IMG/VR virus record: IMGVR_UViG_3300027733_000032
Direction: 5' to 3' (one strand)
From: a virus
DNA length: 64,000 nt
In this document: positions 3,313-55,199 of the stretch, piece after piece
Layout of the letters: every line of letters starts with the position of its first letter
How positions within the stretch are numbered: the first letter of the stretch is position 1
The notes under the pieces: model-generated
Database searches by the model: none
Seen by the model: the letters and a program-made list of their open reading frames with translations, nothing else
Told to the model about the DNA's origin: nothing
Program-made: the position numbers and the translations under genes

Positions 3313-5106
3313 TCAGACCACTGAGGTGGTCAGATTGGACTTGATGATGTCAACTTGAATTGAGTCACCAATACTTGAAACACGCAAACCGACGCGTGCT
3401 GTCACCGTTCCGTCAACTAGTTGAGCGAGCGGATTGAGTGAATTGTCACACTTCACCGTGTAGCCATAGTCAATGCGACGACCATTGACATCGAATGCCT
3501 CATACAAGGCTCCAAGTGTCCGCAAGGGCTCCATAACTGAAACCAATTTTGCTTCGATTGTTGCAAAAACGCTGTTTCGTCCATCGATAACCGTGAACAA
3601 AACATCTTCGAGTGTTCTGTTTGCCTCAACGACTACATGGTTGACCACGTCCTGGGCATTGATGTAACGGAAGTTCGCCGTATCTAGAGACAACGAACGA
3701 GCACCATAGATGCGCACAAGGTTGTTAATAACTCTGATGGCATTGACTGCGCTTGCATCAAGTTGATTGCCAACTGTTGAGTCATATGACGCATAGACTC
3801 CATTAATAAATCTGGCATTAGAGATGATTCCCGCTCCGGGCTGGTGTGGCCCAATCTGGTTATGGGCACGACTACGTGCGCCTGCAACATATCCTGTTGG
3901 CGGAATGAAGCGATTGACGCCGTTGGTTCCAGTTGGTGCGGATACCCACGGTGCATACATTGCGATGTGTTCTGCATTCTCTGAAATCTGGATTCCTTCT
4001 GCGATGTCGCCAAGGTCCGTGGACGAGGTTGTCGTCTTGGCTGCATGAACGATAGCAATTCTGCTCTTTGCGTTACAGTGAGCAATTAGGGCAACCGTAA
4101 ATGCATCCAGAGTACCACCAGAGTACGTTGCTGGTGATTCTGGGCATGCGACAACGCCTGCGCCGTATGCATCAAGGAAGTCATCTAGGGCAGAAGCGTA
4201 TTCGTTTGCGCCTGGGGACGTCGTGCCATCGCTACCCGCAGTACCAAGCGAGCCACCAGCAGGGCCAAATGAGCGTGCTGAAAAGATATCTGGCAATACG
4301 TAAAATGCTGAAGTTCCAGCGACGCCAACGATATTGGTGACCGAGCCAGCCGTAAATGTGAGCGTCGAAGAAACTGTAATAGAAGTAGCCGAAACAATGC
4401 TGGCAACCGTCATGGCTCCTAAACCAAAGGAACCAGGGGACCCGGGGGTGGCGGTAATTACCTGTCCTACCGTCAAGTTGGCAGTACTGCTCATGGCCGT
4501 AATTGTTGCGGTGTATGGTCCAGAACCAGTAACCGAACCAACCGTGCCTGTCGTACTAACTATCAAACTGGATGATGCTAATTCCGCATCAGTGGCAGTG
4601 ATGAGTTGAGAAACCACCGGATGAGTATTGATTTTTCCACAAATTTGTGCATTTGTAGTACAAGAACCCGTTGACATTAAGAGAGTGGTGCCATCATAGA
4701 TGCTTACAACTCTAGAATTCGTAACGTTTCCAGCGGTCACGGCGACTCTCAGGGCATTTGCCGAAGCGCCAGGACCCTGAGCGGTCAAAGTAATTGATGT
4801 AACGGGCGATGCGGCGGCGTTCTTGAGCAATGATGTTGCTGTCGCAGTGCTGGTGGTGTTTGGAACACGGGAAATATAGCAGCGTGTGCCACCTTCTTCA
4901 AAGAAAGATTCCACTGTTGAATGCAGGAAGGAGCCGCTCGTGTATCCGCCATACTTTAATTCAAAGTCTTCGAGGCTAGTAACTAAAAGCGCCTCATCAA
5001 CGGGTCCACGTAGTGCCTGCCCCACAAAGAATGCTTGAGATGTTTCACGAATTGTAGTATTTGCAGGACCAGTACGTACTGCGGTTGAAATTTGGATACC
5101 GGGCAT
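3313..5106 (-). CDS. tail sheath protein
   Basis: MPGIQI start, FFVG-x-x-x-RGP, VTSLEDFE-x-x-YG, C-terminal PPTGYVAG, NAIR, IYGARSL, NFRYIN. An inserted Ser/Thr/Gly-rich beta module is present. Confidence 0.93.
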   Translation of the reverse strand: MPGIQISTAVRTGPANTTIRETSQAFFVGQALRGPVDEALLVTSLEDFELKYGGYTSGSFLHSTVESFFEEGGTRCYISRVPNTTSTATATSLLKNAAASPVTSITLTAQGPGASANALRVAVTAGNVTNSRVVSIYDGTTLLMSTGSCTTNAQICGKINTHPVVSQLITATDAELASSSLIVSTTGTVGSVTGSGPYTATITAMSSTANLTVGQVITATPGSPGSFGLGAMTVASIVSATSITVSSTLTFTAGSVTNIVGVAGTSAFYVLPDIFSARSFGPAGGSLGTAGSDGTTSPGANEYASALDDFLDAYGAGVVACPESPATYSGGTLDAFTVALIAHCNAKSRIAIVHAAKTTTSSTDLGDIAEGIQISENAEHIAMYAPWVSAPTGTNGVNRFIPPTGYVAGARSRAHNQIGPHQPGAGIISNARFINGVYASYDSTVGNQLDASAVNAIRVINNLVRIYGARSLSLDTANFRYINAQDVVNHVVVEANRTLEDVLFTVIDGRNSVFATIEAKLVSVMEPLRTLGALYEAFDVNGRRIDYGYTVKCDNSLNPLAQLVDGTVTARVGLRVSSIGDSIQVDIIKSNLTTSVV

Positions 5107-5681: not shown

Positions 5682-6530
5682 TTAATTCAGGGAAGTAAAG
5701 GCAACTGCAACACCACTTGAAACATAGGAACCCAGGGAACCAACGATTCCTCCAACGGTAAAAGTTGTCGCAGTTCTTGCGGTTATTGTTTCTGCCGAAA
5801 TACCAAAAGTTGCTGGATTAATGCCAGTTACCGTAACTCTTTGCCCAACAGAGAAATTATTGACAGCAGTATAGGTGACGTTAGTTCCGCTCTTGGTTGC
5901 ATTGGTCACTATCGCCGAACGTGATTCAGATAGTCCAAATGATTCTACTGTCAGGTCAATATTGCTAACTATGCCGATTGGTTCACGCATGACTACTTCA
6001 TCTATTGATAGGTCGTAGCCAATATAGGCACCAGCCATGACTCGGTCACCCTTGAGGAGCGTCAAGTCGGAATATTCTTCGGTGATACTAGACTCGTCAA
6101 TCATGACCTTGAAGGTCTGGCGTGGGTCCGTAGCCTTAAGGCATGGGTAGTCGAGAATTGCCGAGCGAACGACCGTCGTGAGCCTGTCTCGCATGAGCGT
6201 TACCTCTTCTGGGCCATAATTGCTGTCGGTCCTGTCAGAACGAACCCAGACGTACGTACGCATATTGTAATTGACCCGATAGAGAGGGTTATTTCTGTCG
6301 AACCCTATTCTTTCCAGTCCAGACATTGACATTGCAACAGTGATGATTGTTGGCCACTCGTCTAGCGCAATAGGCTCATAGGTTGTGTACTTGACTGGAC
6401 TCGGCAATGCAATGTCATCAAGATTCCAGCCATTCCTATAACTAACAAGGCGCGTAGGAAGGTTGACAGCCAAGTACGAACTCACATAGGACTTAGCAAA
6501 ATGCGAGCCATGCATTAAGTCAATTGTCAT
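5682..6530 (-). CDS. tail terminator/completion-like protein with C-terminal FCCH-like beta module
   Basis: Position between neck and sheath genes; C-terminal SGTNVTYTAVNNFSVGQRVTVTG repeat module. Confidence 0.6.
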   Translation of the reverse strand: MTIDLMHGSHFAKSYVSSYLAVNLPTRLVSYRNGWNLDDIALPSPVKYTTYEPIALDEWPTIITVAMSMSGLERIGFDRNNPLYRVNYNMRTYVWVRSDRTDSNYGPEEVTLMRDRLTTVVRSAILDYPCLKATDPRQTFKVMIDESSITEEYSDLTLLKGDRVMAGAYIGYDLSIDEVVMREPIGIVSNIDLTVESFGLSESRSAIVTNATKSGTNVTYTAVNNFSVGQRVTVTGINPATFGISAETITARTATTFTVGGIVGSLGSYVSSGVAVAFTSLN

Positions 6531-6535
6531 TTTTG

Positions 6536-8103: not shown

Positions 8104-8664
8104 TTATCTATCAGCATTGGGCGGGCGTTCTATGGAGATTCTACCCTCTTCTACCGTCCCAGAAGGGGCCTCCACGGGAACCCATGCTCGTGAATAAGTA
8201 TGATTTTTTATATCCCTATGAATGATGAGTGTTCCGTCAAGCATGAGTTCAAGTTCGTGAAATTTCATACAGAACTTTGAAACAAAACCAGTTTCGTCAA
8301 GTTTTTTGGTCTTACCTAAAGTCCGAACCACGCGAGATAGTTTTTTTGCAACAATTGAACCACGCCCACGATTAACCTGAACGTGGATAATCATTGCGTC
8401 CAATTCGGAACATTCTATGTACGTCACAGGGATTCCTTCAGTGAACATCGCAGCCAAGTGAGGATTTCCTTTAATGAGGCGCACTCTTTGTGTACCATCA
8501 ATGATTTTATTAGTTTCCTTATGAACAATAATTGGAGACAATAAACCCGTTGTTCCTATCGAATCAGCAAGAACGAGCAAGTCTGGTCTGAGAATGTACG
8601 TTGACGTCCAGTCGAATTCTAATAAGTCATTGATATTCACAATGTCAATTTTCATATCATTCAT
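8104..8664 (-). CDS. ParB/Srx-fold protein, IbrB-like
   Basis: LADSIGTTGLLSPIIV, IIDGTQR and QVNRGRG; overlaps the upstream PAPS-reductase-like gene. Confidence 0.8.
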   Translation of the reverse strand: MNDMKIDIVNINDLLEFDWTSTYILRPDLLVLADSIGTTGLLSPIIVHKETNKIIDGTQRVRLIKGNPHLAAMFTEGIPVTYIECSELDAMIIHVQVNRGRGSIVAKKLSRVVRTLGKTKKLDETGFVSKFCMKFHELELMLDGTLIIHRDIKNHTYSRAWVPVEAPSGTVEEGRISIERPPNADR

Positions 8665-10759
8665 CTTCTTCTTGTTGTAGAGCGGCCAGTCGTACTGAGT
8701 GAGCCTTGGTTTTTGGTCCGACAGGAGAAACCGACGAGACTGTTAGTGAGTTGAGTAGCAAATTGCGAACCAGCCAGTTCATGGGATATGAATAGGGGTC
8801 GGATGCATGCTTTTTCCTAAATTCTGCAGCGTACGACATCGCTCGCCTCTTAAAATCTTCGCCCCAGATATAGGTTTCAATAAATTCCCTAATCTCTGGC
8901 CACCCACCATCTGCGGTTTCTCGGATTAGTTTTTCAATATCAAAATCTGGATACCAGCGTCGCTGTGCGTCGATTTCCGGCCAACACTGCCAGAGCCCAT
9001 CGTAGAATTCTGGTTCCGTCGCAACAACATCACCAATCCGACGAATTGCCACAGCGTGCAATGGAATGCCGACTCGCTTGTTTGAATTGGTCAATGTGGC
9101 GAGGTCGTAATATTCGCAATATTCTGCGCCATGTTCTTCTGAAAGAAACTTGAAAACATCATCAACTTGCCAGTCGTAAATAATCTTTGCAAACTTCATC
9201 GGCAAACCCTTTTTAGACTTGTAGGGGGTAACGATGTAACTTTCATGCAATTTCTGAACAACCGAGCGATATCTGACCATCGACTCGGCAGCACGTACTC
9301 CAGTAATGAAGGCTATGTTGCCAGTCTTTCCCTGAGTCGTGTAATAATCAATATGCTCTGGCAGGGGGCTACGATGGTCTAAGCCGAAGTGGTAAGCCGT
9401 AATTGCCCATTCTGGCATTGGGCGATACAGATTGCATAATTGCATTCGATGCTCGTGCCACAATAATTCGACCATTCGCCTACCAAGAGACCAAACCTCT
9501 GTCCCCGTAGGCAAACAATTCCCCGTGAGAATATGGTCAGCCAGAACAAACGAATGCGTTTTATCTACAACAGCGCAGTAAACTTCATCGCTTCCATCAT
9601 CTTCAACGGAAACAACCTTCCATAAACGCTTACGTCGATTAGTAGATTTAGCAGAAGACAGCCACCTATCTTTGTGATGAGGGATAATGAAAAATTCTGA
9701 AGTTAAATCTTCGCGAGCAATAGTCATTTGCCAAGACTCAGACTCGGCGTTCCCATAAGTGCCGACCACGGCTTTATTTATGCCATGAGTGAAAATTCCT
9801 AGATTCGTACATACTGTCCGGAAAAACTCTAAGTTTTTCTTTTTGGATGATGCGATTGTTACTTTTCCTTCTTTGGATACACACCCATCAGCGGCAAAAT
9901 ATCCAGAAAGCCACCCATAAAGATAGGATGGGGACTCATCGAGTGATGGATAGTCTTTAAAAAAGAAAGGAAGACCAATAGCGCGTGGCTGCTGAATTTC
10001 ATCCTTGCGCGCTCCTGCGCTCGTAGATGTTATGTGACCATCAAAATATTGTTTCATGACAGTATCTTTGTCACCATGAAAAGTTACTTGGCATCCATTC
10101 GAAGACTTATTGCCGTCACCAAATACAAATCCATGAGCAATGCCGAAAGGACTAGGTAATTTGACGTGTCTAAATTTCCAAGCACCAACCAAGCAGTCAC
10201 CTGGCCTTAGGTCTTGAGTTAATCGTTCAATTTTTTCTTCTTTTTGTTTCCCAAGTTCCGTCCATCTATTCCGCACGAACCAGCGGTGGTCGGGCGTCGC
10301 TCTGATTGTCTTGGTGACGCCATTGCGCATTAATGTGACCTTCTGAACATTACGATGACCAAAGTGGCGAATTGGGGCAGTAACCCACACACCCTTATTG
10401 GTCATTAGTTCGTGTTCTTCACCTGCTAGGTCCCTAATCGGAAATGTTCCGCGTCGTGTAATAACTTCAGTATCACCATCGACGCAATACCACTCCATAT
10501 CTACCCAGTCGTAATCCCTTACTTTCATGACATAGTCAAGTAGTACAGGGCTGACCATTTCTTCGTCACGGAAAATTACTTTGACTGGACCAAGTCCGCG
10601 TTCTTCGTGGATTTCTTTGGCTAAATAAAGAACGGCGCTAGAATCTTTACCGCCAGAAAATTGAACACAGACAGTATCGAAGGTGTCGTAAACGTGGCGG
10701 ATACGCTGCCGTGCAGCCTCTACGCACGAAATATCCAGAAACATGCGTTGCCGAGTCAT
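8657..10759 (-). CDS. PAPS-reductase/PP-loop family protein (IbrA/DUF3440-like) interrupted by an intein
   Basis: VQFSGGKDS PP-loop, FRDEE, ITGVRAAES-x-x-R, KIIYDWQVDDVF and RVGIPLH. Confidence 0.85.
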   Translation of the reverse strand: MTRQRMFLDISCVEAARQRIRHVYDTFDTVCVQFSGGKDSSAVLYLAKEIHEERGLGPVKVIFRDEEMVSPVLLDYVMKVRDYDWVDMEWYCVDGDTEVITRRGTFPIRDLAGEEHELMTNKGVWVTAPIRHFGHRNVQKVTLMRNGVTKTIRATPDHRWFVRNRWTELGKQKEEKIERLTQDLRPGDCLVGAWKFRHVKLPSPFGIAHGFVFGDGNKSSNGCQVTFHGDKDTVMKQYFDGHITSTSAGARKDEIQQPRAIGLPFFFKDYPSLDESPSYLYGWLSGYFAADGCVSKEGKVTIASSKKKNLEFFRTVCTNLGIFTHGINKAVVGTYGNAESESWQMTIAREDLTSEFFIIPHHKDRWLSSAKSTNRRKRLWKVVSVEDDGSDEVYCAVVDKTHSFVLADHILTGNCLPTGTEVWSLGRRMVELLWHEHRMQLCNLYRPMPEWAITAYHFGLDHRSPLPEHIDYYTTQGKTGNIAFITGVRAAESMVRYRSVVQKLHESYIVTPYKSKKGLPMKFAKIIYDWQVDDVFKFLSEEHGAEYCEYYDLATLTNSNKRVGIPLHAVAIRRIGDVVATEPEFYDGLWQCWPEIDAQRRWYPDFDIEKLIRETADGGWPEIREFIETYIWGEDFKRRAMSYAAEFRKKHASDPYSYPMNWLVRNLLLNSLTVSSVSPVGPKTKAHSVRLAALQQEEDE
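9518..10486 (-). mobile_element. intein (323 aa) with LAGLIDADG homing endonuclease
   Basis: Starts WY|CVDGDTEV (block A); ATPDHRW (block B); HGFVFGDG and SGYFAADG LAGLIDADG motifs; ends VYCAVVDKTHSFVLADHILTGN|C. Confidence 0.92.
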
Positions 10760-12566: not shown

Positions 12567-14498
12567 CTACTTGATTGGGCAGGCACCAGTAGCGCAATCA
12601 TCCAATTCAACCAAACCATCAAATGCTGGACGATGTAGGGGAACGGAGAAATCAATCCTGCTCAGCGACTTCTCATAGGCCTCTTTGGTGCATTCTTCAT
12701 ATGGTGGCAATGGGAAGTTGTGGTCCGTATGAAGAAGGAATGAAACCGACTTCACAGAATTGTCGTAATTCTTTGAGAGCCACTCTTTGATTTCCGAAAG
12801 TTCTTCCTTGCGATAATACACGGTCACCGAAACAGCATTGTCTGCCCATTCGGTCTGCATTTTCTTGACCCACTCAAGTTGAGCCACCGCAGTCATGCTG
12901 CTTGCCAGCACAGAGCCCTCAGGGGACTCACAGGGGAATTCAACAACAAAGCGAGTGTGGTCTTCACGACCATCGATTCCAACGTCGTAGCAGACCTTGT
13001 AGCCGCGCTTGCGGCAAGCCTCAACCAATGGGTCAGATGAACCAAAGCGGACGCGACGAATATAATACGGCGCGAATGCTGGGTGAATCCCTGGCGTGAC
13101 GCCAGGAAGCAATGAAAGCGTCCCTGAGGGCTGTACGGTTGTCAGACGAACCGAGACGGGCAATCCATTCTCTTTTGAATACTGAGCGTCAAGCGCCTCT
13201 AGGTAGTCGTATGCATCGGCCAACCACGAAATTTTATCCTCTGAGCACTGAAGGATTCCCGTAATAGACTGGCCTAGACGAGCATTCTTTTGGACAATTT
13301 TGGTCGTCTTCTCGTATGGGTAGTTCATGCGAGTAATTTGCTTTTGAGTTTTGTATAGCAAATATGAGATGTCCTTAAATTGTTCTGAAGAAGCAATATT
13401 TGGGAGGAAAATCGTTGAGAGGTTGCATGATTCACCATCACCTAGTGCAATTTCAGCACAAGGATTAAATCCTTCAATGGTCGGGTCAGCCTTGAGTTGT
13501 CCTACGCGACCGAACTTGCGGGCAAGTTTGCGATTAACTAGGCCATAGGGCTCTCCGGTGCCGTCATAACCCTTCCATAGTTCTGCAGCAATCTCGTCAT
13601 AGCCATCTGCGTAGATGCTGTTATTACTGTTTGCTCGCCATGCGGGAACATTTCCGGAACCCCAGTTCTTTGCACGGAGAAACAGCACGTCATCAGGGTC
13701 ACCGATGGCGATTTGCGCCGAACGACGCGACGAACCCGACACAACGATACGACCAATGATGTTGCAAATGTCCAAAACGTCAATGGAGCGAAGTTTCTTG
13801 CCAACACGATTTTCAAGGACTTTACAAATGTCCGAGATGCCATCAATGAGAGCACCAGGGCCCGATGCAGTCCCACCGAACTTCTTCAGTGGGGCGCCGT
13901 ATTCGCGAACAAGAATCGTCGAATACGTAAATGAACGACCTGTTTCAAAATATGACTTCAGCACTGAATGAAGTAGGCGACGCCATCCTTGACGACTATC
14001 GGGAACGATAATGTCTGCATCATTAGTACGTTCGTGACTAATCGTGATTCCGCCCTTAACTTTGGGCAAATCATGAATCTTTGAGCGTTCAACAGAGAAG
14101 CCGACTCCGCCACCAAGCATGAGGTAATCGAAAAGAAGTTCAAAGTCTTCAATCTTCTCGATGTTGGTGAAGTAACAGTTATTGAGACTCGTGCCTGAGA
14201 ATTCTTTTGTCAAGGTTGTCCCAAGTTGCCACAATGAGCGACCCGCAAATGAACAACGAAGGTTGAACATGTGGTCAAAAAGACGTTCTGCTTCTTCCTG
14301 AGTATATGGAACGCCAATATCAATAGCGCCGTTAATGACTCGTTGAAGTGTTTCTACCCAAGTTTCCGTATCTCCATTATCTTTTTTGCGACTATAAGTA
14401 CGCAGAAAAACGATTTCCCCCATTCCGTTAAATCCCCATGGTGGTGTTTGCTCTGAGTAATTACGTACAAATTCATCGGAAATCCGGGTCATAGCCAT
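12567..14498 (-). CDS. nrdJ: class II (adenosylcobalamin-dependent) ribonucleotide reductase
   Basis: FLRTYSR, LNNC, RRSAQI, GFNPCAEI, TVQPSGT and C-terminal DCATGACPIK redox pair. Confidence 0.95.
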   Translation of the reverse strand: MAMTRISDEFVRNYSEQTPPWGFNGMGEIVFLRTYSRKKDNGDTETWVETLQRVINGAIDIGVPYTQEEAERLFDHMFNLRCSFAGRSLWQLGTTLTKEFSGTSLNNCYFTNIEKIEDFELLFDYLMLGGGVGFSVERSKIHDLPKVKGGITISHERTNDADIIVPDSRQGWRRLLHSVLKSYFETGRSFTYSTILVREYGAPLKKFGGTASGPGALIDGISDICKVLENRVGKKLRSIDVLDICNIIGRIVVSGSSRRSAQIAIGDPDDVLFLRAKNWGSGNVPAWRANSNNSIYADGYDEIAAELWKGYDGTGEPYGLVNRKLARKFGRVGQLKADPTIEGFNPCAEIALGDGESCNLSTIFLPNIASSEQFKDISYLLYKTQKQITRMNYPYEKTTKIVQKNARLGQSITGILQCSEDKISWLADAYDYLEALDAQYSKENGLPVSVRLTTVQPSGTLSLLPGVTPGIHPAFAPYYIRRVRFGSSDPLVEACRKRGYKVCYDVGIDGREDHTRFVVEFPCESPEGSVLASSMTAVAQLEWVKKMQTEWADNAVSVTVYYRKEELSEIKEWLSKNYDNSVKSVSFLLHTDHNFPLPPYEECTKEAYEKSLSRIDFSVPLHRPAFDGLVELDDCATGACPIK

Positions 14499-14563: not shown

Positions 14564-14875
14564 CTACAGTAGACCTAATCTTTTTGCTTCGTCTTGCGAA
14601 ATATTTTCGCCCTTCTTGTATACCAGAACTCGCGCCTTCGTGTATGGCGTTATCGGCTTTTCTTCCCAAATATCTTCTTCAACGAACACAGTTATCCCGC
14701 CTCCGCCAGATGAAGATGCATCAAATCCAATAATATGCTTAGGCGGTGTGCCGTCGGTACAATCGCCGGTTGGATGACCGCACACAGGACAAGCCTGTCG
14801 GTCGGCTCTTGAAATTCTAATACCGTCAATACCCGAGTTGCTAATTCCATGATATTCAGAAAAATAAAGGTCCAT
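14564..14875 (-). CDS. hypothetical protein with CPVCGHPTGDC Zn-binding motif
   Basis: 103-aa ORF, preceded by a TGG-TACGAT -10 box 6 nt before the ATG. Confidence 0.65.
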   Translation of the reverse strand: MDLYFSEYHGISNSGIDGIRISRADRQACPVCGHPTGDCTDGTPPKHIIGFDASSSGGGGITVFVEEDIWEEKPITPYTKARVLVYKKGENISQDEAKRLGLL

Positions 14876-14893: not shown

Positions 14894-14969
14894 TGCCCCT
14901 GGCGGGATTTGAACCCGCGTGTCACCCCTACGGTTTCTACGCTTTATAAGAGCGGGCCGATACAGGGGC
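14894..14969 (-). tRNA. non-canonical tRNA-like RNA, anticodon UAU (Ile), lacking a D-arm
   Basis: Perfect acceptor stem GCCCCTG/CAGGGGC with A discriminator; perfect T-arm GCGGG-TTCAAAT-CCCGC; anticodon loop CT-TAT-AA on a 4-bp stem; only 7 nt between acceptor and anticodon stem; 20-nt variable region; no encoded CCA. Confidence 0.8.
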
Positions 14970-14975
14970 CTGTTC

Positions 14976-15608
14976 TTAAAATTCTTCTACATTAAATCCA
15001 TCCAGATGCATGGCATGAATCATTGCATCCATCTCCTCGTCGGAGTATTCGTTCATTGGGGCGAGACTCAGGGCCTCCCTTAACATTTTAGGAACTGGGG
15101 CAGTCCTCATGATTTCGTCAAGATTTCTCGTATATCCAGTAGTTTCGCCCCATTCAATGGAGCGCCCTATCTCGTAAGAGTAAGGGACGGTGGCGATTGT
15201 GGTCTGAGTCTCCCCTGTAACTTCATTAATTTCGCAATGCGTCACGGTAATACACTCCTTGACTATATTTTTGCCATCTGCAAATGCTTTACGTAAATCT
15301 GCGCCGTTGAGACGTGTCTTGTCAAATGTTTCAAAACCTTCGGCCACTAGCGATATCGCGTCCACCGCCCACGCCACCCTAATGGCATTGCACATTGCCT
15401 GGCATCGAGGGATTCTCTCAAGAACCGGCACGCGCATGTATTCGTTGCGCAACTGAGCAACCATGGATAGTCGACCTTCGCGCCATCCAAAAAAATTGAA
15501 TGCCAAATCCTCCCCTAATCCATATTCTTCAACCATTAAATCTTTTGCCACTTGGGCACTTGTAATGGTAAGAGCAATTTTGCTCATGTCATCAGGGTAT
15601 TCTTCCAT
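14976..15608 (-). CDS. hypothetical protein
   Basis: 210-aa ORF; TAGTTT -10-like box 6 nt before the ATG. Confidence 0.7.
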   Translation of the reverse strand: MEEYPDDMSKIALTITSAQVAKDLMVEEYGLGEDLAFNFFGWREGRLSMVAQLRNEYMRVPVLERIPRCQAMCNAIRVAWAVDAISLVAEGFETFDKTRLNGADLRKAFADGKNIVKECITVTHCEINEVTGETQTTIATVPYSYEIGRSIEWGETTGYTRNLDEIMRTAPVPKMLREALSLAPMNEYSDEEMDAMIHAMHLDGFNVEEF

Positions 15609-18681: not shown

Positions 18682-19255
18682 GAGGAGCGCCCGTTTCCAT
18701 TATCGGTGACCAATCAACATTCTTCAATGCATCAAGGCTCACTTTTGGCCAATCATAGTGCCCCATACCCAGTGCTGTCCAGCCCATCTCCTCTAGCAAC
18801 CATGCGTCAACCTCGTCATCGGCACCCTTACCAGACCAAACTATCCCAGTTCGTGCAGAGACAGCAGAAATGACTTCAGTCTTTGCGGCGTTCCCTCGCC
18901 CTGTAGCAAACTTTGCTCGACAAGTTGGCGGAACGTCTACGTGAGGGATGCCCAATTCAAACAACATTAGACGAATAACGCCACCCAATTCACCTATTTT
19001 GTGCGACTGTGAATTTCTAGCAGCAAAAGCATAACCCTCAACAACAACGCAAGTTACCTGATTTTCTACAATAATTCTATTAACTTCTTTGCGAATATCG
19101 TAAAGGCGCTGAGATTCTTTGGTCTTGACGGCAATTGAACCTGTTTTATTATTAATTGCCCATCCTGTTGATGTCAAAGATAAATCAAGTCCCAATATAC
19201 TCACAGTGAGAGCATAGTGCATATTCTCAATATGAAATGAACGCATAAATAGCAA
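18668..19255 (-). CDS. RuvC-like Holliday junction resolvase
   Basis: ILGLDLSLTSTG, VVVEGY, KFATGRGNA-x-K and DDEVDA acidic motifs. Confidence 0.88.
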   Translation of the reverse strand: MLFMRSFHIENMHYALTVSILGLDLSLTSTGWAINNKTGSIAVKTKESQRLYDIRKEVNRIIVENQVTCVVVEGYAFAARNSQSHKIGELGGVIRLMLFELGIPHVDVPPTCRAKFATGRGNAAKTEVISAVSARTGIVWSGKGADDEVDAWLLEEMGWTALGMGHYDWPKVSLDALKNVDWSPIMETGAPHGNT

Positions 19256-19785: not shown

Positions 19786-20424
19786 TTAGAAGCGGCCAGC
19801 GTCAAGTCCGCCAACTGCAAGCGTTGTAGACGCTGCTTCCTTGTATCTGATTGCAAGCGTGTAACCAGAACCGGCGACTGTCGAGCCAACTGAATCACAG
19901 TCAAAAGAAAGAACTGCGCCTCTTGGAACGATGACTGGCGAGGTGGTGCAGACGATAGTTCCGCCACTGCTATAGGTACCTGGAGTGCCAACGACGCCAG
20001 TAACAGTGACTGTCGTCGAAGTAACTGCAGAAACCTGCTTGTCGGTAAAGTTGTAAGGCACTGCGCTACCTGCTGAAACAGTGACTCCCGAAACAGTAAC
20101 CTTGTCGCCGACCTTGAAAAGGTGACCAGCGGCAACGGTGTAAACAGCGGTTGGTCCGGCACCATTGACGGCACCGCTGATGGTGCCATTCTTGCGAATG
20201 ACAGCGGCTGTAGCCGGCACGAATGTCGTGGCGGATACGGAAAGACCAGCGGCAAGGATGCTGGTTCCGTCAGATTCAATGTCGAAAGTCGCAGCGGAGC
20301 CAGTGGGGGCGGTGTTTAACTGCAACGTCGCGCTAAGAATTTCTGCGCTGAACGGCATTACGAGTGCAACCTTTTGAGCAGCGGTCAGTGCTGCTGTATC
20401 ATTAAAAACAAATGCTAGCGTCAT
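19786..20424 (-). CDS. putative minor virion protein with inserted FCCH-like module
   Basis: Ala/Thr/Ser/Gly-rich; AAGHLFKVGDKVTVSG module; AGGAG SD. Confidence 0.6.
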   Translation of the reverse strand: MTLAFVFNDTAALTAAQKVALVMPFSAEILSATLQLNTAPTGSAATFDIESDGTSILAAGLSVSATTFVPATAAVIRKNGTISGAVNGAGPTAVYTVAAGHLFKVGDKVTVSGVTVSAGSAVPYNFTDKQVSAVTSTTVTVTGVVGTPGTYSSGGTIVCTTSPVIVPRGAVLSFDCDSVGSTVAGSGYTLAIRYKEAASTTLAVGGLDAGRF

Positions 20425-23407: not shown

Positions 23408-23907
23408 TACAGTTTTTCTTTACTAATAACAACGCTGATTTTTCCTTCAGATTTTTGGCAATAATCATCAGCACTAATACCAATTTTATTTAATTCCCCA
23501 ACTCGCCAATAAGAGGGGGCCGCATATTCCAGCATCTTCTGCATCATTTCCAGGGGAGACGCTAACACTTCTCCCGTATCAATGTCAATAGATGATTGAT
23601 AAACGCGATTGGAAACTTCTGCAGCAAGACCCTTGTGGTCCCATGACTTCCTGTCACTACCAATTCTTCTTTCGGCAAGGAAGCCGTCGGGAAGGGACAC
23701 AAACGATTCGTTCATACGGTCCGCCACCAATGTCTCTGTGTGTTCATTCAACATTGCAATATCCTTTTTCAAGGAATTAATTGCTGAATAGATTAAACAA
23801 GACTCTGTGATGTCTGCGCCATCCGATGTTATTGCATCGACGATATCGGCACTCGCTTCTCCAATAAGTCGGCGGATTTCCTCAATTAACTCAACTGGAG
23901 TAGCCAT
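23407..23907 (-). CDS. hypothetical phage protein
   Basis: 166-aa ORF with AGGAAGG SD, coupled to the Sak-like gene. Confidence 0.65.
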   Translation of the reverse strand: MATPVELIEEIRRLIGEASADIVDAITSDGADITESCLIYSAINSLKKDIAMLNEHTETLVADRMNESFVSLPDGFLAERRIGSDRKSWDHKGLAAEVSNRVYQSSIDIDTGEVLASPLEMMQKMLEYAAPSYWRVGELNKIGISADDYCQKSEGKISVVISKEKL

Positions 23908-51706: not shown

Positions 51707-51990
51707 TGAAAATGATTTCATCCGATACCCCTGAATCAACTAGGTACTTCTTTCATGTGCTCAACAATGGGAAGGTTATTGGCCTATTTCGCCTTTATCT
51801 CAACCTGGACTACCCGAAGAAAGGCTCCAAGGGGATTGAGGAAGTTGAATGGAGAAAAGATGAGTGGCTCGCCACCACCGACCTTACTGGTTTTATGATT
51901 AACGGCTCCCATGAAATAATGGAAGTCGACGAGGAAATAGCACGTTCAAAGTTTCCAAAAGCATTTGATGAAAATGAAGGCACAAAGTGA
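51706..51990 (+). CDS. small protein coupled to the RelA/SpoT domain, candidate immunity protein (94 aa)
   Basis: TAATG stop/start overlap, GGAGG SD. Confidence 0.55.
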   Translation: MKMISSDTPESTRYFFHVLNNGKVIGLFRLYLNLDYPKKGSKGIEEVEWRKDEWLATTDLTGFMINGSHEIMEVDEEIARSKFPKAFDENEGTK

Positions 51991-54900
51991 AATTGCGTGC
52001 AGTTTTAGTAGGAACTTTTTACGACAGCAAGTTGTATTACTTACTCGACCCCGTTGGTGAGAAAAATTCAACTGGTGCTCTCGTTGATAAAAAGGGAAAT
52101 GTTGAGTACGTTAAATTCTTTCATTTCATTAAATCTAACCCCAATGTCAAAGAATTAAAATTCAGCAAATTTCATCGTTTCCTCTGGAATGCCCCCAGTC
52201 CTGAAGATAAGCCCAAGTGGATGCGTACGTTCATTAATGGCACCCAGCCAGTCGGCGAAGAAATGTTGCAGGGTGCAAAGATAATCACCGAACTCTCTCC
52301 TGTTGTTGAGAAAAAACAAGACATAGGAGAAAGGGCTCTTCAGTTTAAGTCAATGAATGCATCACAAAACGCATCACGAATACAGGGTTCTGTACTTGCT
52401 AGAAGCGTTAAGTCCATTAGAGAAAAATATGGATTTAAGGGTATTGGAATGTCAATAGGAAACAAGCCAGCCATAGATGGTGATGGTGATGGATTTGTAG
52501 ATGACGGGCTTCCAACAATGAGGCCATTCATCCCTGGCTTCGACTTTGTCTTAGATGCCGCCGGGAACATTCGGGAGACCAAACCTACGAATCAGATTAC
52601 AAAACCCGTAACTCGTGGCGGGATGAGAAGTGGTGTCGTGACAAGACCACAGACACTCGAAGATAGGCTTGCTCCAATTTCAGAACAGGAAATGCGAGAT
52701 AGTTTTAGAAAAATTCGCTCATATGTTGAGATGAAATTCAACGATGGTGTCCCTTTTTCAAAAAAAGGCGAGGCATTAGCAATACTTAAAAAAACTATTC
52801 CGTCTTTTGCCTCTGGCGAATCATACATTGAGTTTTTAAATAATTTGCCGAATGATGATGATGTTATCCCTGATTGGGCAAGGCGATACCTGGATTCCTT
52901 CCTACTCTCAATAGATGCCCAACCAATGTCTGCTCAATTTAATTATCATATGAGAAGAGCAGCGGATAGTAAGAGTTACGAAGGTGCAGTCGGCACTAGG
53001 CCCGGAACCAATGATTATGTCATGGTCGACCCAGTAGGGGAAAAGTACGCTCCAACACGAACAAGGCAGCCCCTTATTGTTTTTTGGTACAAAGAAGCAG
53101 TTGCAGTAACGCCAGCAGTATCGGTTACTGCCGATAAAAGAATGGCTCCATTCTTAGTAAGCCATGCAATTTCTGCAAACGCAATGAATGAGCAACTCTT
53201 GAATGCCGGGATAACTAAGCGCCAACTAGAAGATTTGAACAATCTAGATAGGGTTGATGCAACACTTGTGAGTATTATTACTTCACTAAATGAAATAATT
53301 CAACAAAATCCAACTGCGAGAGTTAATGATGCTGAAAAAATATCACAAAACCTAGTTAATGCCATTGAGGCTTTTGTAGATGTAAAAATATCTAATTCAG
53401 TCATAGACCCTAAAACTAATTTTTTTCTTGAAACTCCAAAAATTCCAGCAGTAACTTTCAAAGACTCCAAAGATAGAGAAAAGCCTTTTATACAAAGCAA
53501 TATTTTGCGACAACTCGTAGACAAAATTGTAAAATCCAATAACAATCCTTTGCTTTCAGACTTGCTAACAAGTGCCCAGGATGCGAGTTTGTCGGCTCAG
53601 CGAACAATTTCTAGTGACAACACTCTTAGAAAAACTCAAAGAAAACTATCATCCATCATGGAAGATGCGCGAGTTTTAACGACCGGCATGATTGCAGTGC
53701 ATGAATCAAATCACATGCTACAAAATATTCAAGCATATATTGATGTGCAAAATGAAGCATCTATTCTGAGAAAAAAATTAATAGACGAACGCATTAATGC
53801 AGCAAACAAATTGCAGATTCCAATAACTCCCGAGATACTCGCAGCAATAGAAGATGAAATAAAAGTAGAAAATTTATATCAAGATTTATTTGTTGAAAAA
53901 GCAGTAAAACTTGCTAAGAGCGATATTGATTTAGCAAAGAGTCGACTCCTTCATGCTGATTTGGCGCGTGTCGACGCAATTTCCTTAAACTTAGAACGCG
54001 ATAAAAAGTCTCCTGAATATAAAAAAACTCCGGACGAAGCACCCGCTCATTATGGATGGAGAAATACGGATGCCGTAGTTGATGCCACGAATCAAATGAT
54101 ATTGAAGTGGGCTGAATTCAATAATCAGGGTGATTCTTCTTTGTCTGACAAGCAAAAATTAGCAAAACAAGCAATAGTAGATTTTCTAAAACAACCACTA
54201 TTTGATGGAACTAATGAGATAAAAATTGGAGAAGGGATTGCTCGTATACTAAATCAATTGGACGCTATCTACGTTGGCGACCTGTCTACTGCGTTTGCAA
54301 ACAATGGGCCTAGATTTGTATCGGGAGAAAATCTTAATATTGGAATGGTCGCAATACTCCTTAATTCAGCACTGATTGAAGATGCTCAGCGAAGAAATAT
54401 CTTTAGTGGATTGAAATTGCGCAATTATTCAGCACTTCTTAATGAAGTTGGATTTCCTGATTTCGCTATTATGGACATGAATGGCGATGGAGTGAAGATA
54501 CAGGGACTCGATATTAATGAGTCAAGGAAACTATCTGCTGCAATCATGAATATGAATAGACTTGCCCTGTCAATTCCTACCGACCCAACAAACGGCATGG
54601 TATCTCCGTCACTGAGCGTGAGAGCAACAACTGCGTTGAGGGCATTTCCTGACGATGCAATGCTGCCATGGCCATTTTCAAATTTGACCAAAACTGAATT
54701 CCTAGCACTACCGGATGATACTTTCATTAAAGGATATGAAAAATTAATTGATACATCATTAAAGGCACTTTTGGGCGTCGCAAGACCACAAGATATAGGC
54801 ACGTTCCTTGAAGATTCATTAATATCAATGAATTGGTGGGACAAACTGTCAAAAGAAGAAATAGAACTACTTCTTGAAGTGGGAAAACGAATTGGTGAAC

Positions 54901-55199
54901 CGAGCATCAAGACGGGCAGGTCGGGTACGGGTTATGCCCCATATATGGGACACCTCACTCCTCAGCATTTACCAATGTTGGCCATCCATCCACAATTTTC
55001 TGAATTTACGGCAGAATTTGCCGTTGCCGAACTATTTGGTGTTGCTTTATCGCAAATAGACATATCTATATCACCAGATGGTAAAAAATCTGCCACTACG
55101 CGAGCATTGTCGGATAATGAGATAGCGGCAATAATGAAATTTATGAGATGGATGTATCCAAATCAAATGTTGGGCGAAAAAATGGAGACAATGCAGTGA
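51987..55199 (+). CDS. large modular protein C with DxDxDG tag and HExxH (HESNH) motif
   Basis: GTGA overlap; IDGDGDGFVDDG-x-x-x-x-RP; GGMRS; HESNH at 53700. Confidence 0.75.
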   Translation: MKLRAVLVGTFYDSKLYYLLDPVGEKNSTGALVDKKGNVEYVKFFHFIKSNPNVKELKFSKFHRFLWNAPSPEDKPKWMRTFINGTQPVGEEMLQGAKIITELSPVVEKKQDIGERALQFKSMNASQNASRIQGSVLARSVKSIREKYGFKGIGMSIGNKPAIDGDGDGFVDDGLPTMRPFIPGFDFVLDAAGNIRETKPTNQITKPVTRGGMRSGVVTRPQTLEDRLAPISEQEMRDSFRKIRSYVEMKFNDGVPFSKKGEALAILKKTIPSFASGESYIEFLNNLPNDDDVIPDWARRYLDSFLLSIDAQPMSAQFNYHMRRAADSKSYEGAVGTRPGTNDYVMVDPVGEKYAPTRTRQPLIVFWYKEAVAVTPAVSVTADKRMAPFLVSHAISANAMNEQLLNAGITKRQLEDLNNLDRVDATLVSIITSLNEIIQQNPTARVNDAEKISQNLVNAIEAFVDVKISNSVIDPKTNFFLETPKIPAVTFKDSKDREKPFIQSNILRQLVDKIVKSNNNPLLSDLLTSAQDASLSAQRTISSDNTLRKTQRKLSSIMEDARVLTTGMIAVHESNHMLQNIQAYIDVQNEASILRKKLIDERINAANKLQIPITPEILAAIEDEIKVENLYQDLFVEKAVKLAKSDIDLAKSRLLHADLARVDAISLNLERDKKSPEYKKTPDEAPAHYGWRNTDAVVDATNQMILKWAEFNNQGDSSLSDKQKLAKQAIVDFLKQPLFDGTNEIKIGEGIARILNQLDAIYVGDLSTAFANNGPRFVSGENLNIGMVAILLNSALIEDAQRRNIFSGLKLRNYSALLNEVGFPDFAIMDMNGDGVKIQGLDINESRKLSAAIMNMNRLALSIPTDPTNGMVSPSLSVRATTALRAFPDDAMLPWPFSNLTKTEFLALPDDTFIKGYEKLIDTSLKALLGVARPQDIGTFLEDSLISMNWWDKLSKEEIELLLEVGKRIGEPSIKTGRSGTGYAPYMGHLTPQHLPMLAIHPQFSEFTAEFAVAELFGVALSQIDISISPDGKKSATTRALSDNEIAAIMKFMRWMYPNQMLGEKMETMQ

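What the first reader, a model, noticed from the sequence alone, without database searches (positions are those of the whole stretch)
14894..14969. D-arm-less tRNA-like RNA with a UAU (Ile) anticodon and a 20-nt 3' insert
Seen: perfect acceptor and T arms, only 7 nt (TATCGGC) where the D-arm should be, and a 20-nt segment after the anticodon arm (AGAAACCGTAGGGGTGACAC). Its CCG(TA) can pair with the 5' (TA)TCGG, extending the anticodon helix, and its GG run could stand in for the D-loop GG. There is no encoded CCA. Known: most bacteria read AUA with lysidine-modified CAU tRNA, UAU anticodons are rare, and D-armless tRNAs are mainly mitochondrial. Inference: a functional AUA decoder (ATA codons are frequent in the giant genes), a decoy for anticodon nucleases, or a regulatory mimic. 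Similar RNAs may already be reported; a search is needed.
Basis: partly seen in the sequence, partly recalled or inferred. Interest (0 to 1): 0.7.

Follow-up and report, generated by a model that had tools for sequence, protein, structure and literature searches.

The report
Phage isoleucine tRNA with rewired D-arm
This 76-base phage gene is very probably a working isoleucine tRNA for the AUA codon whose D-arm is rebuilt from pieces on either side of the anticodon arm. I could not find this non-cloverleaf layout described, and standard tRNA finders miss it.

Summary
On the minus strand at 14894-14969 lies a tRNA-like gene with a perfect 7-bp acceptor stem, a canonical T arm, a UAU anticodon loop and no D hairpin. 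Rfam tRNA scores it 37.6 bits (threshold 29); ARAGORN finds nothing.

It is not a one-off or a relic. Pattern scans and a covariance model recovered 109 distinct relatives in viral contigs, and more in cultured Streptomyces, Microbacterium and crAss-like phages, where they are almost all unannotated.

- **Rebuilt D stem:** the three bases before the anticodon arm pair with three bases after it in 56 of 56 sequences, with four pair types.
- **D-loop copy:** the next segment reads U-A-R-Y-(N)-G-G, and its purine covaries with the base before the T stem (G-C 31, A-U 25, no exceptions).
- **Identity marks:** members carry Ile, Arg or CAU anticodons. Arg members have A after GG; Ile members have U.
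- **Behaviour in arrays:** members fill anticodon slots their arrays lack, and encode CCA when their canonical neighbours do.
- **Swap in sister phages:** phage Stanimal has rewired Arg(UCU) and Arg(CCU) exactly where phage Jay2Jay has canonical ones.

Charging and decoding are inferred, not shown. This scan has met the same class before on other DNA. I found no published description.

The parts
14963..14969 (-). Acceptor stem, 5' strand (RNA nt 1-7, GCCCCUG)
   Evidence: Pairs 7 of 7 with 14895-14901. All seven pairs covary in the family.
14960..14962 (-). U8, A9 and the U that faces U40 (RNA nt 8-10). The last is read as position 22 of a 13-22 type U-U layer.
   Evidence: U8 and A9 are invariant in members found with a pattern that left the 5' part free. 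The roles of these bases are inferred.
14957..14959 (-). Rebuilt D stem, strand before the anticodon arm (RNA nt 11-13, CGG). Equivalent to canonical positions 23-25.
   Evidence: Paired with 14931-14933 in 56 of 56 distinct sequences, with up to four pair types per position. The search pattern left these bases free.
14940..14956 (-). Anticodon arm (RNA nt 14-30). It comprises C26, a C-U mismatch layer, a 4-bp stem CGCU/AGCG and the loop CUUAUAA. The anticodon UAU lies at 14946-14948.
   Evidence: Rfam alignment. The stem is 100% paired with compensatory changes. This copy carries a double compensatory change, G-C where its relatives have A-U.
14934..14939 (-). Linker U-A-GAAA (RNA nt 31-36) between the anticodon stem and the returning D-stem strand
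   Evidence: GAAA was fixed by the first search pattern. Relaxed scans show other linkers in sister subfamilies, such as GAGAA, UAGCA and UCGUUAAAA. Its role is inferred.
14931..14933 (-). Rebuilt D stem, strand after the anticodon arm (RNA nt 37-39, CCG). Equivalent to canonical positions 10-12.
   Evidence: Covaries with 14957-14959.
14919..14930 (-). D-loop-like segment plus junction (RNA nt 40-51): U13, A14, G15, GGG with G18 and G19, U20, then GACA and C48.
   Evidence: GG and the CA before the last base are invariant although the patterns left them free. The purine at 14928 covaries with the base at 14919: G-C 31, A-U 25, none other. The base after GG is U in Ile/CAU members and A in Arg members.
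14902..14918 (-). T arm (RNA nt 52-68): stem GCGGG/CCCGC and loop UUCAAAU
14894..14901 (-). Acceptor stem 3' strand (CAGGGGC) and discriminator A (14894). No CCA is encoded.
   Evidence: All Ile/CAU members have A73.
14976..15608 (-). Upstream gene (210 aa, function unknown). Its stop codon lies 6 nt before the tRNA.
   Evidence: The order orf210, tRNA, orf103, RNR is kept in L150, L098, L020, L190, L198 and L206, where the protein is only 47% identical. No Pfam or PHROG family matches.
14564..14875 (-). Downstream gene (103 aa, function unknown). It starts 18 nt after the tRNA and is followed by the class II ribonucleotide reductase gene at 12567-14498.

Best explanation
The element is a gene for a working tRNA-Ile(UAU) that reads AUA, with a tRNA core joined in a non-cloverleaf order.

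In a normal tRNA, bases 10-21 (the 5' strand of the D stem plus the D loop) lie before the anticodon arm. Here the equivalent segment lies after it.

- **5' strand path:** acceptor strand, U8-A9, then directly a short strand equivalent to 22-25, then the anticodon arm.
- **3' strand path:** anticodon arm, a GAAA linker, a strand equivalent to 10-13, a D-loop-like run A14-R15-Y-(N)-G18-G19-N20, a short CA-Y48 junction, then the T arm.
- **Resulting stack:** the D stem encloses the anticodon arm as one continuous stack. I count ten layers, the same as the canonical D stem plus anticodon stem.
- **Elbow contacts:** the D-loop GG can still reach the T loop, and R15 can still pair with Y48, giving an L shape.

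The RNA is probably cut from a polycistronic early transcript between two small genes. It would then be given CCA by the host enzyme, charged by host IleRS and used on the host ribosome. AUA makes up 20% of this phage's Ile codons.

**Shown:**
- the anatomy
- covariation of every helix and of the 15-48 pair
- conservation of GG
- class-specific N20 and N73
- gene-array behaviour

**Inferred:**
- the three-dimensional fold
- processing
- charging
- decoding
For: **1. Structure under selection.**
- In 56 distinct relatives, 98.8% of pair cells are standard pairs, against 33-46% when partners are slid by 1-3 columns. No shuffle out of 500 reached the observed covariation score.
- The long-range helix was never required by the search pattern. 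It is 100% paired, with G-C 24, C-G 23, U-A 7 and A-U 2 at its middle position.

**2. Tertiary signature.**
- The 15-48 type pair is G-C in 31 sequences and A-U in 25, with no exceptions. Switches occur inside the UAU, GAU and CAU groups.
- In 53 further distinct members it is A-U 47, G-C 3 and other 3.

**3. Identity marks.**
- A follows GG, matching A20, in all 19 Arg members of the first set and in 47 of 49 of the second. From general knowledge, A20 is a known ArgRS identity element in E. coli.
- U follows GG, and A73 is present, in all Ile/CAU members.

**4. Array behaviour.**
- 61 of 96 family loci hold canonical tRNAs nearby.
- Only 1 of 56 rewired genes shares its anticodon with a canonical neighbour, against 9.0 expected from shuffling (no shuffle of 10,000 as low).

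**5. 3' end regime.**
- Rewired genes that encode CCA sit in arrays where 86% of canonical tRNAs encode it.
- Those that lack CCA sit in arrays where 9% do.

**6. Natural swap.**
- Streptomyces phage Stanimal has unannotated rewired Arg(UCU) and Arg(CCU). They occupy the two slots where its relative Jay2Jay has canonical Arg(UCU) and Arg(CCU).
- Flanks and acceptor stems are homologous, and in the UCU slot the T arm is nearly identical and the GCG/CGC D stem is kept.
- Stanimal's only annotated Arg tRNAs are UCG and ACG.

**7. This copy.**
- All stems are intact and it scores 90.7 bits on R1.
- Its position between orf210 and orf103 is conserved while orf210 has diverged to 47% identity.
- It carries a compensatory double change in the anticodon stem.
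- ATA occurs 11.3 times per 1000 codons.

**8. Distribution.**
- The strict pattern hit 97 viral contigs but only 7 contigs among 185,579 species genomes, all of them MAGs.
- 149 of 151 Planctomycetota genomes have no R1 match.
Against: - No expression, processing, charging or decoding data exist for any member.
- No RNA 3D model could be built here, so the L-shape is an inference from covariation.
- For this one sequence the minimum-energy fold is a different hairpin that buries the anticodon, at -30.5 kcal/mol. The family fold is -26.5 kcal/mol.
- The anticodon stem has only four Watson-Crick pairs plus a C-U layer.
- Redundancy does occur. Jay2Jay has both a rewired and a canonical Ile(GAU). 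Microbacterium phage Zooman has a rewired Arg(ACG) with a weakened long-range helix next to a canonical one.
- Family members were found with patterns that fixed UAUC, GAAA, UA and the T loop, so the invariance of those bases in the first set says nothing.
- Sequences are related by descent, so the shuffle controls overstate significance.
- The host of this phage is unknown, so its need for an AUA reader cannot be judged.
Confidence: 0.65

Rival explanations
1. It is a tRNA-shaped RNA that is not used for decoding. It could be a decoy or sponge for host anticodon nucleases or other tRNA-targeting defences, or a regulator that binds a tRNA-binding protein.
For: The anticodons in the class (Arg, Ile, CAU) overlap the targets of known tRNA-cutting toxins; from general knowledge, colicin D cuts tRNA-Arg. 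The odd core could serve to avoid use in translation. Nobody has seen the RNA charged. Redundant copies exist in Jay2Jay.
Against: A decoy has no reason to avoid the anticodons of canonical tRNAs in the same array: 1 shared against 9.0 expected. It has no reason to take over the exact slots and anticodons of canonical Arg tRNAs in a sister phage. It also has no reason to keep synthetase marks such as A20 and A73, or to follow its neighbours' CCA-encoding habit.
Confidence: 0.15
2. It is charged and used on the ribosome, but not as a plain Ile adaptor. The rewired core changes which synthetase charges it or how it reads, so AUA would be read with another amino acid or with altered wobble.
For: Allo-tRNAs with unusual branches often carry UAU anticodons and were proposed as missense suppressors (PMC5389517). 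An unmodified U34 could also read AUG. The D arm carries identity elements for several synthetases.
Against: Class-specific marks fit the anticodon: A20 only with Arg anticodons, and A73 with all Ile/CAU members. In arrays the rewired gene fills the missing Ile or Arg slot. There is no sign of odd ATA usage at conserved positions, though I did not test this formally.
Confidence: 0.07
3. It is a decaying tRNA pseudogene that lost its D arm by deletion and gained junk in the variable region.
For: ARAGORN rejects it. Rfam scores are low, 37.6 bits here and 30-34 or below threshold for relatives, against 41-74 for canonical neighbours.
Against: There are 109 distinct relatives with compensatory changes in every helix, including the one formed by the supposed junk. 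Synteny is conserved while neighbouring proteins fall to 47% identity. Seven or more anticodons share the same architecture.
Confidence: 0.03
4. It is a Y-RNA-like tRNA mimic (YrlA type) that works with a Ro protein in RNA quality control.
For: Streptomyces phages that carry the class also encode a Ro-like protein. YrlA is a known bacterial tRNA look-alike; this lead came from an earlier scan note.
Against: No TROVE/Ro gene is present in this 90-kb record, which is about 60% complete. No Y-RNA family reached its Rfam gathering score in the window, nor E<=1 around the element. The RNA ends in a plain acceptor stem with no Ro-binding helix. It has a proper anticodon loop whose anticodons complement the arrays. 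Most carrier contigs show no link to Ro.
Confidence: 0.03
5. It is a phage attachment site or an integration scar copied from a host tRNA gene.
For: Phage att sites often lie in tRNA genes, and the 3' half is very tRNA-like.
Against: Both acceptor strands are present. Pfam and PHROG scans of eight nearby genes named no integrase. The gene sits among replication and nucleotide-metabolism genes. The family is nearly absent from cellular genomes, with 7 MAG contigs in 185,579 species genomes.
Confidence: 0.01

Closest known systems
Canonical bacterial and phage tRNA-Ile, including tRNA-Ile(UAU) (Rfam RF00005)
   Same: - 7-bp acceptor stem
- A73
- 5-bp T stem with UUCRAAU loop
- 7-nt anticodon loop with U33 and A37
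- GG for the elbow
- a 15-48 type pair
- placement in phage tRNA arrays
   Different: There is no D hairpin between nt 9 and 26. The 5' D-stem strand and D loop lie 3' of the anticodon arm, so the D stem encloses the anticodon arm. The variable loop is replaced by this segment. ARAGORN does not call it, and Rfam scores it about 30 bits lower than its canonical neighbours.
D-armless mitochondrial tRNAs of animals, e.g. mt-tRNA-Ser(AGY) (PMC4013460, PMC9427863)
   Same: There is no D hairpin at the usual place, only a short connector after nt 9.
   Different: Mitochondrial forms simply lose the arm. They have eroded elbows and depend on adapted partners. Here the D stem and D loop are kept but relocated, the T loop and GG are canonical, and the hosts are ordinary bacteria.
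8/4 and 9/3 tRNAs and allo-tRNAs of bacteria and phages (Mukai et al. 2017, PMC5389517; review PMC7609411)
   Same: They are naturally occurring non-standard tRNAs found in metagenomes and phages. UAU is a predominant anticodon, and standard finders miss them.
   Different: Those change the acceptor/T-stem split and carry a long variable hairpin, with the D hairpin in place. This one is 7/5, and its extra segment pairs with the 5' strand instead of folding on itself.
Permuted tRNA genes of Cyanidioschyzon merolae (general knowledge, Soma et al. 2007)
   Same: The order of tRNA segments along the gene differs from the cloverleaf order.
   Different: There the whole gene is circularly permuted and processing restores a normal cloverleaf. 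Here the ends are in the normal place, so the mature RNA itself would have the new topology.
YrlA, bacterial Y RNA with a tRNA-like domain (general knowledge; lead from an earlier scan note)
   Same: It is a tRNA look-alike encoded by bacteria and some phages.
   Different: YrlA has a Ro-binding stem and no decoding anticodon loop. This RNA has neither a Ro-binding stem nor a Ro gene in its record.

Membership tests
tRNA, canonical cloverleaf (Rfam RF00005) | 7-bp acceptor stem with an unpaired discriminator | tested here: met
   7 of 7 Watson-Crick pairs plus A. All seven pairs covary in the family.
tRNA, canonical cloverleaf (Rfam RF00005) | 5-bp T stem with a 7-nt UUCRAAU loop | tested here: met
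   GCGGG-UUCAAAU-CCCGC.
tRNA, canonical cloverleaf (Rfam RF00005) | Anticodon arm with a 7-nt loop, U33 and purine 37 | tested here: met
   Loop CUUAUAA. The stem has 4 Watson-Crick pairs plus a C-U layer and is 100% paired in the family.
tRNA, canonical cloverleaf (Rfam RF00005) | D hairpin between nt 9 and nt 26 | tested here: not met
   Four bases stand where the model has 15 positions. ARAGORN finds nothing in any mode.
tRNA, canonical cloverleaf (Rfam RF00005) | Core signatures: G18 G19 and the R15-Y48 pair | tested here: met
   Both are present, but on the segment 3' of the anticodon arm. GG is invariant. The 15-48 type pair is G-C 31 and A-U 25 with no exception, and fits in 50 of 53 further members.
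tRNA, canonical cloverleaf (Rfam RF00005) | Score at or above the curated gathering score | tested here: met
   37.6 bits against 29. Of seven relatives checked, four pass narrowly (29.9-33.6 bits) and three fail.
tRNA, canonical cloverleaf (Rfam RF00005) | Aminoacylation and decoding on the ribosome | not testable with these tools
   There is only indirect support: identity marks, array complementarity and slot replacement.
   CGG/CCG followed by UAGGGG. R1 scores 90.7 bits. Members score 72-97 and canonical tRNAs 32 or less.
Mitochondrial-type D-armless tRNA | D arm replaced by a short unpaired loop with no compensating element, and a degenerate elbow | tested here: not met
   A compensating helix is 100% paired. 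The T loop and GG are canonical. ARAGORN's mitochondrial modes are silent.
allo-tRNA and 8/4 or 9/3 tRNAs | Acceptor/T branch split 8/4 or 9/3, and a self-folding long variable arm | tested here: not met
   The branch is 7/5. The extra segment pairs with the 5' strand and not with itself.
YrlA / bacterial Y RNA | Match to a curated Y-RNA model, and a Ro-binding stem extending from the tRNA-like domain | tested here: not met
   tRNA was the only family over its gathering score in the window, and no Y-RNA family appeared at E<=1 around the element. The RNA ends at the acceptor stem.
YrlA / bacterial Y RNA | A Ro (TROVE) protein encoded by the same genome | tested here: inconclusive
   No TROVE match in the 90,311-base record, but the record is only about 60% complete.

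The most novel reading that the evidence does not exclude
Rewired-core tRNAs are full decoders on ordinary bacterial ribosomes, and the rewiring is adaptive. It keeps the surfaces read by RNase P, CCA-adding enzyme, class I synthetases, EF-Tu and the ribosome. It removes the D-arm and variable-loop features that host or rival tRNA-cutting defence nucleases need. Phages would then keep reading AUA, AGA and AGG when cellular tRNAs are destroyed.
Probability: 0.12. Interest if true: 0.95.

Novelty: new variant of a known kind. Interest (0 to 1): 0.8.

Why it matters
[quoted passage not shown] If these genes work, bacterial translation naturally accepts a tRNA whose core strands are joined in another order. 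That would show which parts of the cloverleaf are really required.
- **Annotation:** the class is missed by ARAGORN and sits at or below Rfam's threshold. Phage tRNA sets are therefore undercounted. Stanimal's readers for AGA and AGG, and the AUC/AUU reader of a crAss-like phage, are unannotated.
- **Engineering:** it offers a natural scaffold for designing orthogonal tRNAs.
- **Testability:** carriers include cultured Streptomyces and Bacteroides phages, so the question can be settled at the bench.

Tried and rejected
- **ARAGORN:** bacterial, intron, relaxed-score and three mitochondrial modes all found nothing.
- **Close relatives:** megablast of the 5-kb surroundings against 50,697 phage records found no match. 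blastn of this copy alone found only T-arm matches to Streptomyces phage tRNAs. Relatives in cultured phages appeared only when other family members were used as queries.
- **Single-sequence folding:** it prefers another hairpin, z = -1.9. I give this little weight against the covariation.
- **Early versus late ATA use:** the contrast is weak, 15.7% against 22.8% of Ile codons, though the RNR gene has 0 of 41.
- **Promoters and terminators:** the scan gave nothing above background on the tRNA's strand.
- **Upstream gene orf210:**
  - No Pfam, PHROG or PDB sequence match was found.
  - A confident AlphaFold model (pLDDT 86) gave no Foldseek match.
  - It gave only common-arrangement matches to pilins and RelE-like toxins, Z 6.3 or less.
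  - No link to the tRNA could be shown.
- **Literature:** six searches for D-armless or non-canonical phage tRNAs found no description of this layout. The library lacks most subscription journals.

Full report
**What is there.** The window is part of a 90,311-base uncultured virus record, about 60% complete.
- The nearby genes are phage-like: a class II ribonucleotide reductase, an intein-bearing PAPS-reductase-like gene and ParB-like genes.
- On the minus strand at 14894-14969 lies a 76-nt tRNA-like gene. It fits a 100-nt gap between two minus-strand genes of unknown function, 14976-15608 and 14564-14875.
- It has a perfect 7-bp acceptor stem, discriminator A, a canonical T arm and the anticodon loop CUUAUAA.
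- Only UAUCGGC stands where the D arm should be. Twenty bases lie between the anticodon stem and the T stem. No CCA is encoded.
- Rfam's tRNA model matches end to end at 37.6 bits (threshold 29). It skips the D arm and treats 17 bases as an insertion. ARAGORN reports nothing in any mode.
- It is the only tRNA-like gene in the record.

**It belongs to a large family.**
- A pattern that fixed only the anticodon loop and the T loop found homologues in viral contigs.
- A second pattern left the anticodon and the candidate pairing bases free. It hit 97 viral contigs and gave 56 distinct sequences.
- Their anticodons are UAU, GAU, CAU, UCU, CCU, UCG and ACG, that is Ile, Met or Ile2, and Arg.
- A covariance model built from them (R1) separates members (72-97 bits) from canonical tRNAs in the same contigs (32 bits or less).
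- Two looser patterns plus R1 added 53 distinct members with other linkers between the anticodon stem and the returning strand, mostly Arg.

**The structure is under selection.** On the 56-sequence alignment, 98.8% of pair cells are standard pairs. With partners slid by 1-3 columns the figure is 33-46%. No shuffle out of 500 reached the observed covariation score.
- *Long-range helix.* The bases before the anticodon arm (CGG here) pair with the bases after it (CCG here). No search pattern required this. It is paired in 56 of 56 sequences, with G-C 24, C-G 23, U-A 7 and A-U 2 at its middle position.
- *D-loop-like run.* After this helix comes U-A-R-Y-(N)-G-G, which reads like positions 13-19 of a normal tRNA.
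- *15-48 type pair.* The purine in that run covaries perfectly with the base just before the T stem: G-C 31, A-U 25, no other combination. Switches occur inside the UAU, GAU and CAU groups. This is the behaviour of the R15-Y48 tertiary pair. In the extended set 50 of 53 sequences fit.
- *Unforced invariants.* GG, and a CA before the last base, are invariant although no pattern fixed them.

**The model.** Relative to a cloverleaf, the segment equivalent to positions 10-21 has moved from before the 22-25 strand to behind the anticodon arm.
- The D stem then encloses the anticodon arm as one continuous stack.
- By my count the stack has four Watson-Crick pairs, a pyrimidine-pyrimidine layer, a junction, three Watson-Crick pairs and a U-U layer. 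That is ten layers, as in a canonical D stem plus anticodon stem.
- The GG can still meet the T loop.
- This fold is inferred. No RNA 3D tool was available. For this single sequence the family fold (-26.5 kcal/mol) is 4 kcal/mol less stable than an alternative hairpin.

**Evidence that it acts as a tRNA.**
- *Identity marks.* The base after GG is A in all 19 Arg members of the first set and in 47 of 49 of the second. It is U in all Ile/CAU members. From general knowledge, A20 is a major ArgRS identity element in E. coli. All Ile/CAU members have A73.
- *Array setting.* 61 of 96 family loci carry canonical tRNAs near the rewired gene.
- *Complementarity.* Only 1 of 56 rewired genes shares its anticodon with a canonical neighbour, against 9.0 expected from shuffling. 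No shuffle of 10,000 was as low.
- *CCA habit.* Rewired genes that encode CCA sit in arrays where 86% of canonical genes encode it. Those that lack CCA sit where 9% do.
- *Cultured phages.* Family members used as blastn queries matched 7, 11 and 47 cultured-phage records, overlapping sets that are mostly cluster BE Streptomyces phages. With few exceptions nothing is annotated under the match.
  - In crAss-like Kehishuvirus 'tikkala', a rewired Ile(GAU) fills a tRNA-sized gap between tRNA-Trp and tRNA-Met. The only canonical Ile tRNA in that 23-tRNA array is UAU.
  - Streptomyces phage Stanimal has three unannotated rewired genes: GAU, UCU and CCU.
- *Slot swap.* Stanimal's UCU and CCU genes lie exactly where its relative Jay2Jay has canonical Arg(UCU) and Arg(CCU).
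  - Flanks and acceptor stems are homologous.
  - In the UCU slot the T arm is nearly identical and the same GCG/CGC D stem is kept.
  - The GCG-U-A-R-U-GG-A run stands before the anticodon arm in one phage and after it in the other.
  - Stanimal's annotated Arg tRNAs are only UCG and ACG.

**This copy.**
- All helices are intact.
- Compared with its closest relatives it has a double compensatory change in the anticodon stem.
- The order orf210, tRNA, orf103, RNR is kept in six contigs where orf210 is only 47% identical.
- ATA makes up 20% of Ile codons, 11.3 per 1000, in the window's large ORFs.

**Distribution.**
- The strict pattern hits only 7 contigs among 185,579 species genomes. All are metagenome-assembled genomes.
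- 149 of 151 sampled Planctomycetota genomes have no R1 match.
- The class is therefore essentially viral.

**Weak points.**
- Nobody has seen any member expressed, charged or read.
- Redundant copies exist in Jay2Jay. A copy with a weakened helix exists in Zooman.
- The first set was collected with patterns that fixed several motifs.
- Sequences are related by descent, so the shuffle statistics are generous.
- Rival readings (decoy, recoding adaptor, pseudogene, Y-RNA-like mimic, att remnant) are listed with their evidence. The record has no Ro gene.

**What is known.**
- Reviews of non-canonical tRNAs list tRNA-Sec, tRNA-Pyl, allo-tRNAs, 8/4 and 9/3 forms, and armless mitochondrial tRNAs. 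None has this layout.
- A 2024 paper states that all known bacterial tRNAs are cloverleaves (PMC11551756).
- Searches for D-armless or non-canonical phage tRNAs found nothing.
- Earlier notes of this scan describe the same class on other DNA, with Arg and Ile(UAU) forms, and reached similar conclusions. I re-derived the structure independently. The 15-48 covariation, the CCA habit, the anticodon complementarity test and the Stanimal/Jay2Jay slot swap were not mentioned in the short summaries I could read.

Noticed in passing
L004-L006, L015, L017, L018, L021 and about 80 more loci: Many viral contigs carry another odd UAU tRNA type. It has a long extra arm after the anticodon arm whose loop reads CCAGAUUAGCGG or similar, so it contains GAU. 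Some copies have a normal D arm and encoded CCA; others have an unusual 5' part. An earlier scan note (e1-121598) calls this a phage Ile tRNA with two anticodon-like arms.
   Followed up: no
window 14976-15608 (-): This 210-aa protein has no Pfam, PHROG or PDB sequence match. Its AlphaFold model is confident (pLDDT 86, pTM 0.85) but gives only weak pilin-like or RelE-like matches (Z 6.3 or less). It lies immediately upstream of the rewired tRNA in the closest relatives, and homologues occur in about 25 carrier contigs.
   Followed up: partly
L337 (Streptomyces phage Stanimal OP021680) 6455-6531, 19114-19191, 23431-23507; L215 (Jay2Jay KM652554) 19999-20075: These are unannotated rewired tRNA genes in cultured phages. 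The GAU copy always follows a small 'nucleotidyl transferase' gene. The same region encodes a Ro-like protein, an RNA ligase and a polynucleotide kinase, so these phages carry a full RNA repair and quality-control kit beside 40 or more tRNAs.
   Followed up: partly
L217 (Microbacterium phage Zooman OK040793) 1488-1563: A rewired Arg(ACG) with a weakened long-range helix (one base missing) lies directly after a canonical Arg(ACG). It may be a copy that is decaying because it is redundant.
   Followed up: no
L216 (Kehishuvirus 'tikkala' OQ198717) whole 5-kb array: ARAGORN finds 23 tRNAs, including an Arg(UCU) at 726-797 that the record does not annotate. It finds no Tyr tRNA. An earlier scan note (e1-4040102) reports a rewired, pseudoknotted tRNA-Tyr in crAss001-like phages.
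   Followed up: no
L090 and L108 (about 4157-4236), L109 3536-3615: These divergent UAU members have a longer linker, AUUAAAA, before the returning strand. They score 60 and 46 bits on R1 and look like a bridge to other subfamilies.
   Followed up: no
window 12567-14498 (-) versus 51987-55199 (+): The ribonucleotide reductase gene uses ATA for 0 of 41 Ile codons. A 1070-codon plus-strand gene uses it for 32 of 79. Overall the strand contrast is modest, 15.7% against 22.8%.
   Followed up: partly
window 8657-10759 (-): The PAPS-reductase-like gene is interrupted by a LAGLIDADG intein, as shown by Pfam hits to Intein_splicing and LAGLIDADG_3.
   Followed up: no
G128:C5:197045-197121 and the MAG contigs L208-L214: The few R1 matches in 'cellular' assemblies lie on contigs of metagenome-assembled genomes (Planctomycetota, Bacteroidota, Snowella, Chthonomonadaceae). 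They may be binned phage contigs or prophages and could hint at hosts.
   Followed up: no
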